Assembly (NCBI RefSeq): GCF_963506605.1
Contig: NC_083287.1
Coordinates: 36,022,001-36,086,000, forward strand
Reading direction: 5' to 3'
Source: Zootoca vivipara
Lineage: Eukaryota
Length of the DNA stretch: 64,000 bases
Shown: in pieces, positions 2,603 through 17,775 of the stretch
Layout: every line of letters starts with the position of its first letter
Numbering within the stretch: position 1 is the first letter of the stretch
Translations under genes and position numbers: made by a program
Notes under the pieces: generated by a model
The model's database searches: none
Told to the model about the DNA's origin: nothing
Seen by the model: only the letters and a program-made list of their open reading frames with translations

Positions 2603-2728
2603 CATTCTGCTCTTACAGTGGTCAACTAGATGTCTATGGGAAACGCAAGCAGAAACTGAATGCAGTGTTCTGTTGTTTCATACATGAGCCTTGAGTTTGT
2701 GTGCTGTCCCCTCCCCACTCCTGGTGTG
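2603..2728 (+). repeat. Presumed source copy of a perfect 126-bp inverted duplication (partner 10708-10833)
   Basis: Exact reverse complement, checked base by base. The left part continues a CR1-like 3' UTR fragment starting near 2563. Confidence 0.95.
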
Positions 2729-3055
2729 GCCGTGAGGAAGAGATCTGAAATTTCAGCTTCCAATTTAATCTAACCTCAGTTAGCATTGTTTTTACCTCTA
2801 ATCATTATTATGATTTGTTGAAACAAGGAAGCTTCATAAACTATTGTTTGAAGTTGGCCTGCTTCAGTAAACTATAGATAAGATCAGAAACGGGGAGGGG
2901 GGGTTTCAATTCAGCTTGCACTTTGTGAAATTATATCTGAAGCAAAAATCGGTTGTCCTGTTAAATTTGCACTTTTTCCAATTCTCCACTTGCAGTTCTC
3001 TAGCCAAGTGATGTGTATTAAAAATATGTATATTAAAGTGTTTGTAAAAATGCAT

Positions 3056-6000
3056 TGTTGTTGTTGTTGTTTAGTCGTTTAGTCGTGTCCGACTCTTCGT
3101 GACCCCATGGACCATGGCACGCCAGGCACTCCTGTCTTCCACTGCCTCCCGCAGTTTGGTCAAACTCGTGTTCGTAGCTTCGAGAACACTGTCCAACCAT
3201 CTTGTCCTCTGTCGTCCCCTTCTCCTAGTGCCCTCAATCTTTCCCAACATCAGGGTCTTTTCCAAGGATTCTTCTCTTCTCGTGAGGTGGCCAAAGTATT
3301 GGAGCCTCAGCTTCACGATCTGTCCTTCCAGGGAGCACTCAGGGCTGATTTCCTTAAGAATGGATAGGTTTGATCTTCTTGCAGTCCATGGGACTCTCAA
3401 GAGTCTCCTCCAGCACCATAATTCAAAAGCATCAATTCTTCGGCGATCAGCCTTCTTTATGGTCCAGCTCTCACTTCCATACATCACTACTGGGAAAACC
3501 ATAGCTTTAAGTATACGGACCTTTGTCTGCAAGGTGATGTCTCTGCTTTTTAAGATGCTGTCTAGGTTTGTCATTGCTTTTCTCCCAAGAAGCAGACGTC
3601 TTTTAATTTCGTGACTGCTGTCACCACCTGCAGTGATCAAGGAGCCCAAGAAAGTAAAATCTCTCACTGCCTCCATTTCTTCCCCTTCTATTTGCCAGGA
3701 GGTGATGGGACCAGTGGCCATGATCTTGGTTTTTTTGATGTTGAGCTTCAGACCATATTTTGCGCTCTGCTCTTTCACCCTCATTAAAAGGTTCTTTAAT
3801 TCCTCCTCGCTTTCTGCCATCAAGGTTGTGTCATCTGCATATCTGAGGTTGTTGATATTTCTTCCGGCAATCTTAATTCCGGCTTGGGATTCATCTAGTC
3901 CAGCCTTTCGCATGATGAATTCTGCATATAAGTTAAATAAGCAGGGAGACAATATACAACCTTGTCGTACTCCTTTCCCAATTTTGAACCAATCAGTTGT
4001 TCCATATCCAGTTCTAACTGTAGCTTCTTGTCCCACATAGAAATTTCTCAGGAGACAGATGAGGTGATCAGGCACTCCCATTTCTTTAAGAACTTGCCAT
4101 AGTTTGCTGTGGTCGACACAGTCAAAGGCTTTTGCATAGTCAATGAAGCAGAAGTAGACGTTTTTCTGGAACTCTCTAGCTTTCTCCATAATCCAGCGCA
4201 TGTTTGCAATTTGGTCTCTGGTTCCTCTGCCTCTTCGAAATCCAGCTTGCACTTCTGGGAGTTCTCGGTCCACATACTGCCTAAGCCTGCCTTGTAGAAT
4301 TTTAAGCATGACCTTGCTAGCGTGTGAAATGAGCGCAATTGTGCGGTAGTTGGAGCATTCTTTGGCACTGCCCTTCTTTGGAATTGGGATGTAGACTGAT
4401 CTTCTCCAATCCTCTGGCTATTGCTGAGTTTTCCAAACTTGCTGGCATATTGGGTGTAGCACCTTAACAGCATCATCTTTTAAAATTTTAAATAGTTCAG
4501 CTGGGATATCATCACTTCCACTGGCCTTGTTATTAGCAATGCTTTCTAAGGCCCATTTGACTTCACTCTCCAAGATGTCTGGCTCAAGGTCAGCAGCCAC
4601 ACTACCTGAGGTGTACAAGACCTCCATATCTTTCTGGTATAATTCCTGTGTGTATTCTTGCCACCTCTTCTTGATGTCTTCTGCTTCTGTTAGGTCCTTA
4701 CCACTTTTGTCCTTGATTATGGTAATCTTTGTACGAAATGTTCCTTTCATATCTCCAATTTTCTTGAACAGATCTCTGGTTTTCCCCATTCTATTGTTTT
4801 CCTCTATTTCTTTGCATTGCTCATTTAAGAAGACCCTCTTGTCTCTCCTTGCTGTTTTTTGGAAATCTGCATTCAGTTTCCTGTATCTTTCCCTATCTCC
4901 CTTGCATTTTGCTTGCCTCCTCTCCTCCGCTATTTGTAAGGCCTCATTGGACAGCCATTTTGCTTTCTTGCATTTCCTTTTCCTTGGGATGGTTTTCGTT
5001 GCTGCCTCCTGTATAATGTTACGAGCCTCCATCCATAGTTCTTCAGGCACTCTGCCCACCAAATCTAAATCCTTAAACCTGTTCCTCACTTCCACTGTGT
5101 ATTCATAAGGGATTTGATTCAGATTGTATCTTACTGGCCCAGTGGTTTTTCCTACTTTCTTCAGTTTAAGCTGGAATTTTGCTATAAGAAGCTGATGATC
5201 TGAGTTACAGTCAGCTCCAGGTCTTGTTTTTGCTGACTGTATAGAGCTTCTCCATCTTTGGCTGCAGAGAATATAATCAATCTGATTTCGATGCTGCCCA
5301 TTTGGTGATATCCATGTGTAGAGTCGTCTCTTGTGTTGTTGGAAGAGAGTGTTTGTGATGACCAGCTTGTTCTCTTGACAGAACTCTATTAGCCTTTGCC
5401 CTGCTTCATTTTGAACTCCAAGGCCAAACTTACCAGTTGTTCCTTTTATCTCTTGATTCCCTACTTTAGCATTCCAATCCCCTGTAATGAGAAGAACATC
5501 CTTCTTTGGTGTCATTTCTAGAAGGTGTTGTAGGTCTTCATAGAATTGGTCAATTTCACTTTCTTCAGCACCGGTAGTTGGTGCATAAACTTGGATTACT
5601 GTGATGTTAAAAGGTCTGCCTTGGATTCGTATCGAGATCATTCTGTCATTTTTGAGATTGCATCCCATTACAGCTTTTGCCACTCTTTTGTTGACTATGA
5701 GGGCCACTCCATTTCTTCTACGGGATTCTTGCCCACAGTAGTAGATATGATAGTCATCCGAACTGAATTCGCCCATTCCCTTCCATTTTAGTTCACTGAT
5801 GCCCAGGATGTCAATATTTATTCTTGTCATCTCATTTTTGACCACATCCAGCTTACCTCCATCCATGGTTCTTACATTCCAGGTTCCTATGCAATATTTT
5901 CCTTTACAGCATCGGACTTTCCTTTCGCTTCCAGGCATATCCGCAACTGAGCGTCCTTTCGACTTTGGCCCAGCCGCTTCATCAGCTCTGAATCTACTTG

Positions 6001-6285
6001 TACTTGTCCTCCGCTCTTCCTCAGTAGCATGTTGGACGCCTTCCGACCTGAGGGGCTCATCTTCCAGCGTCATAACTTTTATATGCCTGTTGTCTTTGTC
6101 CATGGAGTTTTCTTGGCAGGGATACTGGAGTGGCTTGCCAGTTCCTTCTCCAGGTGGATCACGTTTAGTCAAAACTCTCCACTATGACCTGTCCATCTTG
6201 GGTGGCCCTGCATGGCATAGCTCATAGCTTCTCTGAGTTATTCAAGCCCCTTCGCCACGACAAGGCATTGATCCATGAAGGGGCG
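3056..6285 (-). mobile_element. Full-length Bov-B (RTE clade) LINE, about 3.2 kb
   Basis: APE endonuclease motifs (GTWNVRT, GISE, GDWNA, IDYI, SDH), RT YADD motif, C-terminus HGVTKSRTRLND, (CAA)n tail, 7-bp TSD aatgcat (3049-3055 / 6286-6292). Confidence 0.96.
3071..6103 (-). pseudogene. Bov-B endonuclease/reverse transcriptase ORF interrupted by one TGG>TAG stop at 4418-4420
   Basis: ORFs 4418..6172 and 3071..4309 are in the same frame. The copy at the end of the window reads KTQQWPEDW at this site. Confidence 0.92.
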
Positions 6286-6801
6286 AATGCATAGAATGGT
6301 GAAAATGCATAAAAATGCATAGAATGGTGAAAATGATATGCATAAAAACATTATACTGGGGGAAATTGGTTTGCGTGTGTGTGCATTAGGCAAAATTCTA
6401 TACAAAAATGCATGTACTTGGAGAAATTCACACAGAAATGCTGATGAATTTTCACAGGTTCTTAAAACAAAATACAACCTGCTGTGGCAGTTTCGCCAAT
6501 ACCCAGATAAGAGTAACCAGTTTGTCCACATTCAGACATAATACTTAACTGTTGTTCATTAAAAATGGAAGCAAAAACTTCTGATATTCCATGCCAGAGG
6601 AGAGGGGAGGATGAAGTGCACAAGCCAGAAACACACATAGGCTTGTATGCATAGGACATAATTTATTATTAGGTCTGAATAAGACCATACCAACAAGGCT
6701 TGAAGAAGAATGTCCCCAAGAAGTGCATTAAAGGCATGCTCATGTCATTTATGTTTTCAGGCAATGAATGTTCCTAACAACCTCCCTATTTTATATTTCA
6801 G

Positions 6802-6911
6802 GAACCTTTATTTATGTGACTGGCTCACCGGAGGCAAACACTAAGCCTATCATTTCTCGCCTCAGCAGCCCAGTCTTTACAAAACTCTCCAGCAATGCTC
6901 TATATTGCCAG
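6802..6911 (+). CDS. MALRD1: MALRD1 exon, MAM domain (GTFIYVTGSPEANTKPIISRLSSPVFTKLSSNALYCQ), phase 1-0
   Basis: tttcag|GA acceptor, CAG|gtaact donor, 110 bp open frame. Confidence 0.85.
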
Positions 6912-7031
6912 GTAACTTTGTGATATTTCCTTGCCATCCTTTGCATAAGCAGTTTTTGTCTTCCTGTTTAGCCAACCGAATTAGACCATATGTTGCTTTT
7001 AGCCCAGGGTTGGGAAACATATAGGCCTCCA

Positions 7032-7254
7032 TAGTTCTAGTTACAGGTAGGTAGCCGTGTTGGTCTGAGTCGAAACAAAATAAAAAAAATCCTTCAGTAG
7101 CACCTTAAAGACCAACAAAGTTTTTATTTTGGTATGAGCTTTCGTGTGCATGCACACTTGGTATCTGACGAAGTGTGCATGCACACGAAAGCTCATACCA
7201 AAATAAAAACTTTGTTGGTCTTTAAGGTGCTACTGAAGGATTTTTTTTATTATG
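7032..7254. mobile_element. Penelope-like element terminal fragment arranged as an inverted repeat, inserted in an older hAT-MITE-like repeat
   Basis: Arms 7079-7159 and 7171-7251 are perfect reverse complements; flanking duplication taggcctcca (7022-7031 / 7255-7264). The family is assigned from recognising the gtagccgtgttggtctg...gtagcacctt..agaccaac motif. Confidence 0.75.
7158..7201 (+). ncRNA. Minimal type I hammerhead ribozyme motif (Penelope-type)
   Basis: Helix I ttggtat/ataccaa; core CTGACGA (7165-7171); helix II gtgtg-catg-cacac; GAAA (7187-7190); palindromic AGCT in place of helix III; predicted cleavage after C7194. Confidence 0.7.
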
Positions 7255-7902
7255 TAGGCCTCCAGATGATGTTAGATTACAAGTCCCTTTATCCCCAGCC
7301 TGCATGGTCAACGGTCAGGGATAGGAATTTATACACCAACAACACCTGGAGGGCCAAGCCCAGCCCTAGCCCAATCCACCCCAACAGCAGCCTACAAGAT
7401 GCCTTTGGGGAGGGTCAACACCAAACCTCAAGGGGTCTTTGGCATGGTATAACAAATGCCCTCACTCCATTGCCAATGTCCCTGTCCTTGCTGACACTGG
7501 CACCCACCCCACCACTGGAGAGCCCCTTGTGTCCCCCATCTTTCTCTTTGCAGCAGCAGCAGCATTGCTACTGCCCTTTTCCCTGTATTTCCCCCTCTGC
7601 CAGCTCTTGACTCTGAGAAAAGGCCAAATAAAGGTTCTTCTTCAGAACCAGGCATTCTGAGTGAGATGGACAGGAGAATGCCTGTGCTGTAACCTCAAGG
7701 TTTCTAAGTATTTGACAATAACAGATTAAAAGCCCAGTCAGGTTTTTTTTTTGGGGGGGGGAGAGACTGGAGGATGCTTGCAGGTCAGTTACATTAGATT
7801 TGTGATTAAAGAGTACATAGAAAGATACTTTGCATTCATAGTTGATTGTTATGTGATCTATTGAAGGGATTCATAATTTCATTTTAAAAATCCTTCCAAC
7901 AG

Positions 7903-8082
7903 ATGAGATTTTGGTATCAGTTGTCCCAGGATGCCCAGCTGAGTGTCTTTCTTCGAACTCCTGTTGATGGGGATTTGCAAAGCTTACATAACTCAAAGCC
8001 TTTCAAGAGCACAATGCAGTGGGCAAAAGCAAATGTCCTTTTAAAAAATATCACTGGCGATGAAATTATAGGACCTTTTCAG
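7903..8082 (+). CDS. MALRD1: MALRD1 exon, MAM domain (MRFWYQLSQ...IIGPFQ), phase 0-0
   Basis: caacag|ATG acceptor, CAG|gtaagc donor, 180 bp; matches ORF 7903..8187 up to the donor. Confidence 0.9.
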
Positions 8083-9710
8083 GTAAGCCCCTTACCTGCA
8101 CCAAGGTGCAAGTGTACTCAAGTAGTTATTTGCTGTTGGTATTCCTCATTGCAAAATAACTTTAAAACTTTAACAATAACAATGTAGTTGGCTGGATCCG
8201 GATTAAGTCAGTTGTCCTAGTGGAAATAATTTGAAATTACTGTAAATCATAACTAATCTGTTCCATTGATCTAAGTAGGACTTAAATTCAACTAGCTTGA
8301 TATGGATCCAACCCAATAATTTACTTCAGCTGAAATTAAAAATAAAGGAGAATGCTGCTAAATAGTATGGCACGTGTTAATAGGTATCTAAGATTGGTTT
8401 AGAAACAATTGCAGAATATTCAGAATTTTGCATTTCTAGAGATCATATTTATTCTAGTAGATAGTGTTATGGTAAGTAGCATTTAGAGAAGGACTTGCCA
8501 ATTTCTCAGGAGCCATTATGATTTCTATACACTCATTCAGAGGCCAAACCCTTTTACAGCTAGTCAGACTCAGTAGGACAGTAGGAGGAAGAGCTTTCCA
8601 ATGGTGTTGATATTCAGTTATATAAAAATTTTTAAATGATGTGACATTAAAATGTGGAATATCTTTTCTTACAAGGTTTGAAAAATATTTTATTTTTGGT
8701 ATGAGTAAGACTTTCCACATACTTTGACTGAAATTTGGTAGGGCTGCCAGAGGCTAGATCAGGTTCATAGCAGGAGTAGGATCATCCTGATGTTGCTGGA
8801 CTACACCTCCAATCATCCCTGACCCTTCTGGATGTGGCTAATGGGAACTGGAGTCCAACAGGAGGACCATGGGTTCCCCATTCTAGTCTATGCAAAACTG
8901 ATCCTTTCAGCCACATTAATCATGCACAGCCTTTTTAGTAACTTCTTTTATGTTGTTCCACTTGCAGTGTTGTCACCATTTTTTGGTCCTGCAATATCCC
9001 AGTACCTGGCAAATATGATGTTATGTCTAAACTAACAACATAAGTAGGAATAGGCAAGCTCCCAACATCTCAATTCAGACTCGGCTGAATTGGACTTGTT
9101 CGACTTAAAAAATAAATAAATCAAATCTTGGGAAGGCCTGGTGAATTCTAGATGCTTTCTTCCCTGGTTGGACTCCGCTGCTGTGTACCTTCCCTACCTT
9201 CAGTTTTCCTCTGTCGCCTTGCAACTTCCTCCCTTTCCCTATCAGTGTGCAAAGGTGGGCATAAATGGCAGCTCTGTTGCCTAGGTTACCAGAGCCTTAC
9301 CAATAGGACGTTTTTGAAGCCAAGATTGATTGAATTGTACTTGGCTAGGGCTTCTTACTCAAAGGCTTTTCCCACTCAGCCACTCCTTAGCTGCATTCCT
9401 TTGTGCAGGTTAGTTTTTTTCCTAGTCTGAGGAGCAGAGAGTTGAGCAGCGTAGGAGAGCAGGTGACAATGCAGGCCTTTAGCCTTCCCACTCCTATCTA
9501 GGGGGTGTTACACCCTGTTGTCAGTGCCCTAAGTTGCCATACATGTGTGTTAATAACTTGGCAGCTTTCCCACCAGTGACAATTATGGTATTGTCATTGA
9601 CGGGCAATGTTTCTCTAGCCAAATTCTTTAAATGACATATGAATTCCTCAGAACACATCACTGCCGTTCCTCCCTTCCACTCCAACTCTCTGTGATTCTA
9701 ATGTGGAGCC

Positions 9711-10617
9711 TTGTTGTTGTTGTTGTTGTTTAGTCGTTTAGTCGTGTCCGACTCTTCGTGACCCCATGGACCAGAGCACGCCAGGCACTCCTGTCTTCCA
9801 CTGCCTCCCGTAGTTTGGTCAAACTCATGTTCGTAGCTTCGAGAACACTGTCCAACCATCTTGTCCTCTGTCGTCCCCTTCTCCTAGTGCCCTCAATCTT
9901 TCCCAACATCAGGGTCTTTTCCAAGGATTCTTCTCTTCTCATGAGGTGGCCAAAGTATTGGAGCCTCAGCTTCACGATCTGTCCTTCCAGGGAGCACTCA
10001 GGGCTGATTTCCTTAAGAATGGATAGGTTTGATCTTCTAGCAGTCCATGGGACTCTCAAGAGTCTCCTCCAGCACCATAATTCAAAAGCATCAATTCTTC
10101 GGCGATCAGCCTTCTTTATGGTCCAGCTCTCACTTCCATACATCACTACTGGGAAAACCATAGCTTTAACTATACGGACCTTTGTCGGCAAGGTGATGTC
10201 TCTGCTTTTTAAGATGCTGTCTAGGTTTGTCATTGCTTTTCTCCCAAGAAGCAGGCGTCTTTTAATTTCGTGACTGCTGTCACCATCTGCAGTGATCAAG
10301 GAGCCCAAGAAAGTAAAATCTCTCACTGCCTCCATTTCTTCCCCTTCTATTTGCCAGGAGGTGATGGGACCAGTGGCCATGATCTTGGTTTTTTTGATGT
10401 TGAGCTTCAGACCATATTTTGCGCTCTCCTCTTTCACCCTCATTAAAAGGTTCTTTAATTCCTCCTCACTTTCTGCCATCAAGGTTGTGTCATCTGCATA
10501 TCTGAGGTTGTTGATATTTCTTCCGGCAATCTTAATTCCGGCTTGGGATTCATCTAGTCCAGCCTTTCGCATGATGAATTCTGCATATAAGTTAAATAAG
10601 CAGGGGGACAATATACA
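9711..10617 (-). mobile_element. 5'-truncated young Bov-B copy with no visible TSD
   Basis: Nearly identical to the 3' 900 bp of 3056-6285; open RT C-terminal frame; (CAA)n tail. Confidence 0.95.
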
Positions 10618-10707
10618 TAATTTAGAACCCTTCAAAACTCTTCAGACGTTCATGTCCAGATATTGGTGCTTTTCTTTTTTTTAAACAACAACAGCAGCAT
10701 CCATCAA

Positions 10708-10833
10708 CACACCAGGAGTGGGGAGGGGACAGCACACAAACTCAAGGCTCATGTATGAAACAACAGAACACTGCATTCAGTTTCTGCTTGCGTTTCCCAT
10801 AGACATCTAGTTGACCACTGTAAGAGCAGAATG
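10708..10833 (-). repeat. Inverted 126-bp copy of 2603-2728
   Basis: Exact reverse complement. Confidence 0.95.
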
Positions 10834-11875
10834 TTTTTTGTGTACATTCTGGGGTGAAATCTAGATACATACAAAAAAACACTGTGAAAATGTTTTTTTT
10901 TTAAAAAAGTTTTAAAATATATATTGAATTTGCCATTAGCTCACAATCATCATCTAGTGTCACATTTGTATAATGTACTTAAAACACACTCAAAATGTTA
11001 TATTTGCAGCTGTATAGCTGAGTCCCAAGTATAGGTTTTTGTACAAGTACCTATGTTTAGAGGATGCCTTAGAATCATGCATGTCAGAGTTTACATTTAT
11101 TCAATGGCCAATGACAGATACTCAAGTATACCCTAAGAAGGGTGGGGCAAGCTTTGTTTGCCTCCATGCTGCCTTACATGCATGTCCAGTTGGTGCATAT
11201 GCACATACAGTTATGTACATAAAGACTCAAATCACATATTTAATCTCTAGACTGTATATTGGAGGTCTTGGACCTCACGATTTGAGCCTGTGTACAAGGG
11301 TTTGTACATGAGTATTCCCCAATTAGACATAAGGGCCCTATGTGAATAGCTAGCGGTATTCAAAACAGTGAAGGAATATCAAGTAGGGAGTCTCTCAGTT
11401 CTCACCTCATGCAGGAGAATAATTTACAGAAGTATAATCGATGTAGTCCAATGAATCACATTATTCTGTGATTCAGTATGTGCAGAATTTGGCATGTGGT
11501 ACAGAATCTGCTGACTGTCATGGAATCTGCAGAATCTAAGCTATGGATTTGTAAAGCCACCGAGCATTGATGGCCCACAAGATCAGGACAATTTTGCAAG
11601 CCTTTTTCCTGAGCACACAGCAACAAACATTGAATTGAACCCCCACTACTTCTGCAGACTGAAGAATGTATCGAATACATTAGCTGAAGGGAAATAAGAA
11701 GTATTGCTAGGCAGGAAAGGATTGGGGGTTATAGCCAACTAAAGTTTACTCATTGGGTGAAATTCAACTATGTTTTATTCAATGTAAACCTACTGGAATT
11801 AATGTGATTAAGAAAGTCATGCCCACTTATTTCAGTTGGTCTACTCTGAGTAGTACTAACATTGGAATCAAGCCA

Positions 11876-12070
11876 TAGGAGGTTGCCTTGTGCCAAGTCA
11901 GATTTTTGTCCATCTAGTCTAGTACTGTTTTCTCTGACTGGGAGCTGATCTCCAGGGTCTCAAGCAGAGATCTTTTCTACCTCCTGCTACCTGATCCATT
12001 TATCTGGAAATACGAGGAATTCAGCCTTGGAACTTTTTACATACAAAGTATATGCTCTACCCCTGAGCCA
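11876..12070 (-). mobile_element. Old tRNA-derived SINE with CR1-like 3' part (Squam3-like)
   Basis: Degenerate tRNA-like head on the minus strand (tggctcaggggtagagcat...); related copies near 29826-30040 and 31481-31630. Confidence 0.55.
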
Positions 12071-12095
12071 AAAATATGGCAAATGTGTTCTGTAG

Positions 12096-12312
12096 ATAAT
12101 ACTTAAGTTTTAGCCACTGTTTTTTTCTTGCAAGAAAATGTAACTGTGTTTTTTTAAGGGGCAACAATGTGGGAAACCTCTGATTCCTCATCTCTTTATT
12201 GTCCACCTGGATTGTTGGCATGTAAGAATGGAGACTGTATTACTTCTGACAAGTTTTGTGATTTTTGTGAAGTTTCCTGATTGCCCAGATGGCAGTGACG
12301 AAGCCCTGTGCT
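12096..12312 (+). pseudogene. MALRD1: Decayed MALRD1 exon (MAM C-terminus plus LDLa repeat), expected phase 0-1
   Basis: ttctgtag|ATA ATA CTT (IIL), then in-frame TAG at 12111 and TAA at 12141. ATV...NVTV and CPPGLLACKNGDCITSDKFCDF lie in a shifted frame that ends in TGA at 12278. PDCPDGSDEALC|gtaagt is back in the original frame. The expected DDI motif is absent. Confidence 0.8.
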
Positions 12313-13248: not shown

Positions 13249-13401
13249 CTGCTAAATGTGACTTTGAAACAGACAGCTGTGGCTGGATGGAAACAGCCAG
13301 GGGTGATGCATTTGATTGGGTAAGGAGCTCCAGAAGCAGTCTACCCCCTGCTTTCCAGAAGCAAGCTCCAGCACAGGACCACACCTATAACCAACCTGCA
13401 G
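13249..13401 (+). CDS. MALRD1: MALRD1 exon, MAM start (AKCDFETDSCGW...DHTYNQPA), phase 1-1
   Basis: ttccag|CT acceptor, G|gtaagg donor, 153 bp. Confidence 0.93.

Positions 13402-16191: not shown

Positions 16192-16698
<507 letters not shown>

Positions 16699-17199: not shown

Positions 17200-17775
<576 letters not shown>

What the first reader, a model, noticed from the sequence alone, without database searches (positions are those of the whole stretch)
2603..10833. Perfect 126-bp inverted duplication 8 kb apart that brackets two exons
Seen: 10708-10833 is the exact reverse complement of 2603-2728. The unit starts inside a CR1-like fragment and runs into unrelated sequence, so it looks locus-templated rather than a dispersed repeat. 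Zero divergence implies recent origin or conversion. In pre-mRNA the pair could form a 126-bp duplex that loops out exons 6802-6911 (phase 1-0) and 7903-8082 (phase 0-0). Inference: skipping those two together with the dead exon restores a phase 1-1 join to 13249, so the duplex could promote frame-restoring multi-exon skipping. It could also promote a 290-nt circular RNA.
Basis: partly seen in the sequence, partly recalled or inferred. Interest (0 to 1): 0.7.

Follow-up and report, generated by a model that had tools for sequence, protein, structure and literature searches.

The report
Exon-deleting patch with frame-restoring indel
The perfect 126-base mirror copy in this lizard's gut gene MALRD1 is real but is likely a scar left when a jumping-gene copy from another chromosome was patched in and an almost universally kept exon was lost; a 7-base insertion in the next exon is predicted to put the damaged gene back in frame, and these changes differ between individuals.

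Summary
The repeat is real: exact, two full copies in the genome, and present in contigs of two samples. The gene is MALRD1 of a lacertid lizard. Arm 2 (10708-10833) is the last piece of a 1.1-kb composite insert: a truncated LINE plus 92 bp of its flank copied from chromosome C15, then an inverted copy of 2603-2728 joined by 2-nt microhomology, with no target-site duplication. Other samples lack the insert. A 38-codon exon kept in 100 of 101 orthologue models is missing here, likely deleted by the same event. The 'dead' exon is not dead in this context: joining 8082 to 12159 reads open, because its +7-nt change cancels the lost exon (696 open codons). Skipping only the two bracketed exons gives a stop. 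So the repeat is most likely a repair by-product, not a splicing device; the notable feature is an exon deletion paired with a frame-restoring indel, both polymorphic. Splicing, the order of events and selection are untested; one sample holds an unexplained third arrangement.

The parts
2603..2728 (+). Arm 1, the native template of the inverted copy (repeat fragment in its first ~62 nt, then unique intron)
   Evidence: a related species' contig holds this stretch with other flanks (X11 record 12)
3055..6283 (-). Near full-length LINE (RTE/Bov-B-like by its (CAA)n tail; clade not tested by tree); its 3' 904 nt form a 98.6% direct repeat with 9714-10617
   Evidence: Pfam RVT_1 E=1.6e-41
6802..6911 (+). 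MALRD1 MAM-domain exon, phase 1 to 0
7903..8082 (+). MALRD1 MAM-domain exon, phase 0 to 0; the 38-codon exon that follows it in orthologues is absent from this genome
9702..9712 (+). Left junction: 11-mer that also lies about 30 nt outside the tail of the C15 donor; an X1 contig ends at 9708; X4, X5, X11 contigs run on into unlike sequence
9711..10617 (-). Inserted 5'-truncated LINE copy, starting at its (TTG)6 tail, same truncation point as the copy at G000:C15 (L043:6064-5162)
10616..10709 (+). Flank of the C15 donor carried along, beginning with the donor's own 8-nt target-site duplication; ends in the 2-nt microhomology at 10708-10709
10708..10833 (-). Arm 2, inverted copy of 2603-2728, last piece of the insert; joins native intron at 10834
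12159..12312 (+). LDLa exon, 154 nt here against 147 in other samples; net +7 nt at 12265-12275; open when read from a phase-0 donor and back in frame from 12276
13249..13401 (+). Next MAM exon, phase 1 to 1; without the +7 the shifted frame would stop at about 13321

Best explanation
Arm 2 is the last piece of a composite insert in a MALRD1 intron, likely laid down in one germ-line break-repair or aberrant retrotransposition event that likely also deleted a conserved exon; the repeat is inferred to be a by-product, not a selected splicing switch. Shown: the insert reads tail-first through a truncated LINE and 92 nt of its flank from chromosome C15, then through a 2-nt microhomology into an inverted copy of 2603-2728, with no target-site duplication; it is absent from other samples; the 38-codon exon is missing; the +7 nt in exon 12159-12312 makes the remaining exons one open frame. 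Inferred: a reverse transcriptase or repair polymerase extended the broken end at about 9708 along the C15 template, jumped to the local template (both pieces have the polarity of cDNA made from sense RNA: the LINE RNA, then this gene's own pre-mRNA; I put RNA templates at 55%, DNA templates at 45%), and was joined to 10834, losing the intervening intron and exon. Predicted outcome: default splicing 8082 to 12159 gives an in-frame protein with one MAM domain lacking its last 24 profile positions and 39 shifted residues in place of the linker and most of an LDLa module, probably of reduced function.
For: Composite anatomy: 974 of 999 letters match C15 across LINE and flank; C15 has the target-site duplication and continues natively, so it is the donor; only 2 matches to the flank in the genome; microhomology at 10708-10709. 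Derived and polymorphic: contigs of X4, X5 and X11 (other species) leave the stretch at 9702 and run on unbroken for 819, 547 and 1,028 unlike letters, 3 of 4 runs laid; X1 and X3 hold the junctions. Exon loss: a Podarcis query matches its 4 flanking exons at E<=6e-14 but residues 149-183 have no match at the locus; 100 of 101 placeable orthologue models keep the exon; it ends the Pfam MAM domain (6-171 of the query). Frame: 696 codons open over 11 exons. Precedent: L1 insertions with sequence templated from DNA near the site and target-site deletions (PMC11702581, section 7 and passages); class 2 TSIPs (PMC5110952, passages). Inverted pairs are common in this gene.
Against: The lost exon was not seen directly in any same-species contig; its place in the replaced segment is inferred. 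X4 holds the right junction (contig 10804-10922, half depth) without the C15 junction, which a single event does not explain without a later deletion. The insert's LINE shares only 1 of the 16 differences of the assembled C15 copy, so the donor must be another C15 haplotype (an X5 contig is identical over 10578-10709) or a mixed template. About 29 nt of donor flank between the 11-mer and the tail are skipped. A by-product can still affect splicing: the arms lie 4,074 and 2,626 nt from the exons, inside the range where inverted Alu pairs are enriched around skippable exons (PMC13019027, passages).
Confidence: 0.75

Rival explanations
1. The repeat acts as an RNA duplex that loops out exons and was kept because it restores the frame. 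Its best form: on an insert-bearing haplotype without the +7, skipping exactly the two bracketed exons (290 nt) plus the lost exon (115 nt) is 405 nt, in frame.
For: Perfect 126-bp duplex, -258.9 kcal/mol; arms within 5 kb of the exons (PMC13019027 passages); X3 holds the insert junctions and shows only the intact LDLa exon, so such a haplotype may exist.
Against: On the window's haplotype two-exon skipping gives a stop and inclusion is open; the 405-nt sum follows from the phase-1 borders of MAM modules whatever brackets them; arm 2 is a piece of a polymorphic insert; X4 seems to keep only about 35 nt of it; a 187-nt hairpin (-142 kcal/mol) and many other inverted pairs lie in the same pre-mRNA.
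Confidence: 0.1
2. The right junction is older: an inversion or longer inverted duplication first joined reversed 2603 to 10834 and removed the exon; the C15 piece came later and cut the copy down to 126 nt.
For: X4 has the 10833|10834 junction, no C15 junction, and a 470-nt contig that runs unbroken from the 126-mer into its native flank; X4 depth halves over about 9216-9702.
Against: That contig ends at 10828, not 10833, which fits a 35-nt remnant (10799-10833) left by a secondary deletion; an imperfect repeat at 9234-9242 and 10793-10800 offers the joint. Its depth (48.5) is single-copy, against a long duplication. An inversion-first history needs a non-homologous exchange between homologues to give the window's order.
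Confidence: 0.12
3. Assembly artefact or chimeric read.
For: Three pieces from two chromosomes next to a high-copy repeat; X1 may be the source sample.
Against: Both arm-2 junctions and the doubled 126-nt contig stand in short-word contigs of two samples; the flank variant in the insert differs from the assembled C15 copy but equals an X5 contig.
Confidence: 0.03

Closest known systems
Non-canonical L1 insertions with locally templated sequence and target-site loss (PMC11702581; section 7 and passages read)
   Same: Insert starts at the element's 3' tail, is 5'-truncated, has microhomology at the junction, carries a piece templated near the site.
   Different: Germ-line, lizard, RTE-like non-autonomous donor with flank on its 5' side; template 7 kb away; likely kb-scale loss with a coding exon.
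Class 2 templated sequence insertion polymorphisms (PMC5110952; passages read)
   Same: Polymorphic patch from a distant, intact donor; no target-site duplication; microhomology and deletion at the site.
   Different: About 1.1 kb from two templates (one distant, one local and inverted), against single patches of 73-414 bp in the cited experiments.
Pairs of mutually compensatory frameshifts, pCFM (PMC8935012; abstract and passages read)
   Same: Two frame-shifting changes cancel; the stretch between reads in a new frame without a stop.
   Different: One partner is loss of a whole 3n+1 exon rather than a small indel; the pair is polymorphic within a species, not a fixed difference.
Inverted-Alu loop-out exon skipping, TBXT type (PMC13019027; passages read)
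   Same: Inverted intronic pair within 5 kb of the exons.
   Different: Not a fixed pair of SINEs; brackets two exons; no RNA evidence; looping out would break the frame on this haplotype.
MALRD1 / Diet1 (PMC8804323; passages read)
   Same: Orthologue; 83-96% identity per exon to Podarcis muralis.
   Different: One MAM-terminal exon lost and one LDLa exon shifted on this haplotype.

Membership tests
Canonical target-primed LINE insertion | Insert begins at the element's 3' tail | tested here: met
   (TTG)6 at 9711 against (TTG)4 at the donor
Canonical target-primed LINE insertion | Target-site duplication | tested here: not met
   No repeat shared by 9690-9710 and 10834-10860; the donor at C15 has one
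Non-canonical LINE insertion with templated piece and deletion | Extra piece templated near the site, joined by microhomology | tested here: met
   126 nt from 7 kb upstream, 2-nt overlap
Non-canonical LINE insertion with templated piece and deletion | Loss of target DNA | tested here: inconclusive
   Other samples run 547-1,028 unlike letters past 9702 and the exon is missing, but the replaced segment was not read
Non-canonical LINE insertion with templated piece and deletion | Made by reverse transcription (RNA template) | not testable with these tools
   Polarity fits; no host transcript over the C15 donor was identified
Class 2 TSIP | Distant donor left intact; no TSD or poly(A); microhomology | tested here: met
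Class 2 TSIP | Polymorphic in the species | tested here: met
   Junctions in X1 and X3; unbroken other sequence in X4 and X5
Inverted-repeat loop-out skipping / circRNA | Stable inverted pair within 5 kb of the exons | tested here: met
Inverted-repeat loop-out skipping / circRNA | Skipped or back-spliced RNA that depends on the pair | not testable with these tools
   Needs RNA of a carrier from an expressing tissue
Inverted-repeat loop-out skipping / circRNA | Pair fixed or conserved | tested here: not met
   Insert absent from X4, X5 and X11 contigs at the left junction
Compensatory frameshift pair | Two shifts cancel with no stop between | tested here: met
   -115 +7 = -108; 696 open codons; 115 nt is derived from 38 codons plus the phase change, not read from DNA
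Compensatory frameshift pair | Both on one haplotype, second arose after first | tested here: inconclusive
   Both in the assembly and in X1; +7 shown in 1 of 4 same-species samples; X3 has the insert and shows the intact exon; contigs may drop alleles
Compensatory frameshift pair | Restored transcript or protein is made | not testable with these tools
   No protein with the shifted stretch among the hits

The most novel reading that the evidence does not exclude
A wild lizard population carries a three-step allele series at MALRD1 caught in progress: a retro-templated patch deleted an exon that vertebrates keep, making a null; a later +7-nt change in the next exon was favoured because it restores the frame and yields a protein with 39 new residues; and a further haplotype has shed most of the patch. 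That would be a segregating, selected compensatory frameshift whose first partner is a whole-exon loss. If the +7 arose on the null allele, a random frameshift would rescue with only about 2% chance (237 of 6,600 nt, half of the classes), and it is the only other lesion seen.
Probability: 0.3. Interest if true: 0.72.

Novelty: new variant of a known kind. Interest (0 to 1): 0.45.

Why it matters
The repeat as such is ordinary: templated pieces at complex insertions are known. What is worth following is the allele around it. Compensatory frameshift pairs are rare (6 stringent cases in 100 vertebrates and 122 insects, PMC8935012 abstract) and are seen after fixation, when the intermediate is gone. 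Here intact, deleted and deleted-plus-restored states seem to coexist in one species, so the order of steps, the cost of the null intermediate and selection on the rescue can be measured by genotyping. It also shows a non-L1 LINE copy spreading with flank and removing a coding exon in a reptile germ line, and that the public gene models from this assembly (6 of 7 isoforms skip nine exons here) describe a damaged haplotype.

Tried and rejected
RNA: no RNA holder listed for the stretch. Of 23 runs listed, 6 were laid (X1, X3, X4, X5, X11, X21). The first lay was swamped by LINE contigs, so joints and loose ends at 9702 were not shown; the ancestral sequence and the size of the deletion were not read. 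Search for the lost exon with 45-residue pieces of orthologues over 164 kb: nothing at the expected place; with a 38-aa peptide in the genome: no candidate, uninformative without a control, repeated with built-in controls. Host gene over the C15 donor: 149 of 259 open frames from 70 kb scanned against Pfam, none above a curated cut-off, inconclusive. Protein search for a same-species product containing exon 7903-8082: 2 hits of 17 candidates, neither lacertid. Crude scan for a replacement exon in 8083-12158: 9 acceptor-like and 3 donor-like sites, no pair 40-300 nt apart. The shifted residues peak at hydropathy 1.49 over 19 residues, short of a clear membrane span. Gene conversion as cause of identity: not needed. 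A simple inversion of the 8 kb between the arms: rejected, the enclosed exons keep the gene's strand and order. Literature: 10 searches; none listed this allele; the search for exon deletion with second-site frame restoration in natural populations gave 1 paper, on Arabidopsis, seen as a listing only; the library lacks most subscription journals. Supplementary figures S9-S10 of PMC11702581 were not seen. Earlier findings of the scan: none near this place; 3 on MALRD1 or relatives in other genomes do not bear on it.
Full report
Observation. 10708-10833 is the exact reverse complement of 2603-2728. In the 1.44-Gb genome only these two copies are full-length; the other 38 of 40 matches cover letters 1-64 at 80-93%. 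Contigs of samples X1 and X3 hold the 126-mer as a separate 126-nt record at about double depth and both junctions without a difference, so it is not an assembly error. X1 may be the source sample; X3 is another sample of the same study.

Gene. The exons belong to MALRD1; exon 17338-17754 is 100% identical to named Zootoca vivipara models whose contig has the length of G000:C12. Mapping orthologues on the window and 100 kb upstream places every exon in order on the + strand, which rules out an inversion of the 8 kb between the arms. One exon is missing: the 38 codons that follow 8082 in all 8 Podarcis models examined and in 100 of 101 orthologue models where both neighbouring exons could be placed (the other stored proteins, about 130, were distant, partial or skip the region and were dropped). 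A Podarcis query found its four neighbouring exons and nothing at the locus for residues 149-183. The exon carries the end of the MAM domain and, from the phases of its neighbours, runs from phase 0 to phase 1 (115 nt, inferred).

Anatomy of arm 2. It is the end of a composite insert. 9717-10709 matches G000:C15 at 974 of 999 letters: a 5'-truncated LINE with the same truncation point plus 92 nt of flank. At C15 the element has an 8-nt target-site duplication and the flank continues, so C15 is the donor. The flank passes into the inverted copy through a 2-nt overlap at 10708-10709, the copy ends at 10833, and there is no target-site duplication. At the left end an 11-mer (9702-9712), found once in 164 kb of this locus, also lies about 30 nt outside the donor's tail; an X1 contig ends at 9708, so about 7 nt of it may be native microhomology that primed copying (inference). 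The LINE family has an RVT_1 domain; 'RTE/Bov-B-like' rests on the (CAA)n tail and on PMC13295347 (passages: such tails in RTE-clade LINEs, 52,041 Bov-B hits in Podarcis muralis), not on a tree.

Polymorphism. Contigs of X4, X5 (same species) and X11 (another species) follow the window to 9702, where the tool masks the tail, and run on unbroken for 819, 547 and 1,028 unlike letters. The insert is thus derived and not fixed; junction depths in X1 (10.4, 9.3 against 14-15) and X3 (14.5, 9.5 against 18-30) suggest heterozygotes but do not prove it. The inserted LINE differs from the majority of 7 aligned copies at 4 sites, one shared with C15; the assembled C15 copy differs at 16. An X5 contig of the C15 type is identical to the window over 10578-10709, so the donor was probably another C15 haplotype. 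At 3 private changes per 890 nt, identity of the arms has P=0.43: recent origin suffices.

Mechanism. One broken end at about 9708 was extended along the C15 template from the tail through the flank, jumped to the local template, copied 126 nt and was joined to 10834, with loss of the native segment and, likely, the exon. Read left to right both pieces are the complement of sense RNA (LINE RNA, then MALRD1 pre-mRNA), which fits reverse transcription with a template jump; DNA template switching gives the same product and explains the flanks on both sides of the donor as well. I put them at 55 to 45. Insertions with pieces templated near the site and with target-site loss are described for L1 (PMC11702581, section 7 and passages) and as class 2 TSIPs (PMC5110952, passages).

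Reading frame. The LDLa exon 12159-12312 is 7 nt longer than in X3, X4 and X5 contigs; X1 matches the window. Read in its old phase it stops early, hence 'dead'. But with the 115-nt exon gone, 8082 (phase 0) meets 12159, the shifted frame has no stop, and the +7 returns it to the old frame at 12276: 11 exons give 696 open codons. Without the +7 the shifted frame stops at about 13321. A random frameshift on a null allele would rescue with about 2% chance. Against reading this as selection: the LDLa exon is left out of many orthologue models (present by a loose pattern in 29 of 93; 7 of 8 Podarcis models keep it), so it may tolerate a frameshift on an intact allele, and then the match is near a coin toss. 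X3 has the insert and shows the intact exon, and the +7 shows in 1 of 4 same-species samples, which favours deletion first, but contigs may drop alleles. The rescued protein would lack the end of one MAM domain and carry 39 shifted residues; a Malrd1-deficient mouse sub-strain is viable with altered bile-acid control (PMC8804323, passages), so the cost of a null may be modest.

The duplex idea. The arms could pair (-258.9 kcal/mol) and lie 4,074 and 2,626 nt from the exons, within the 5-kb range of inverted-Alu enrichment around skippable exons (PMC13019027, passages). But 76 inverted pairs of at least 100 nt lie in 164 kb of this gene, 9 under 12 kb apart, the pair is not fixed, and on this haplotype its loop-out product is out of frame. 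An incidental effect on splicing or circular RNA is not excluded; a selected role is unlikely (10%).

Unexplained. X4 holds the right junction at half depth (10804-10922) while its 126-mer runs unbroken into the native flank and stops at 10828; its depth halves over about 9216-9702. A secondary deletion joining about 9240 to 10799 through an imperfect repeat fits, and would mean most of arm 2 is dispensable; an older inversion also fits in part. Neither was read.

Verdict. Observation confirmed; interpretation partly supported. The repeat is most likely a repair scar (0.75). The allele, a whole-exon loss cancelled by a small indel and polymorphic in a wild vertebrate, is a new variant of a known kind; I found no paper on it in 10 searches of a library that lacks most subscription journals. 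Interest 0.45; 0.72 if the rescue proves selected (probability 0.3).

Noticed in passing
window 3055-3958 and 9714-10617: The insert also made a 904-nt, 98.6% direct repeat that brackets the same two exons, a substrate for deletion by unequal recombination.
   Followed up: no
window 3055-6283 (-): Near full-length LINE whose frame (587 + 448 codons) is broken by a single stop at about 4418.
   Followed up: partly
window 7069-7255: Near-perfect palindrome, 88-nt arms, 5-nt loop, predicted -142 kcal/mol, about 160 nt after exon 6802-6911.
   Followed up: partly
window 9098-9184: Dense cluster of 7-8 substitutions and 8 gap letters with two forms in both X1 and X4; the other form shares its letters with the related species X11.
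   Followed up: no
window 8152-8942: Related species X11 has little cover here, so the intron differs; the lost exon's position in that species is not known.
   Followed up: no
window 16198-16212: Six of seven named Zootoca isoforms jump from an exon 28 kb upstream to an acceptor 14 nt before the orthologous one, skipping nine exons that are open; probably a modelling workaround.
   Followed up: partly
L043:6061-5063 (G000:C15): The assembled donor differs from the X5 form by a 6-nt indel and 3 substitutions in 132 nt, so deeply diverged haplotypes seem to segregate there.
   Followed up: no
P0225: The Lacerta agilis model begins inside the LDLa exon, so that assembly may also be irregular upstream.
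   Followed up: no
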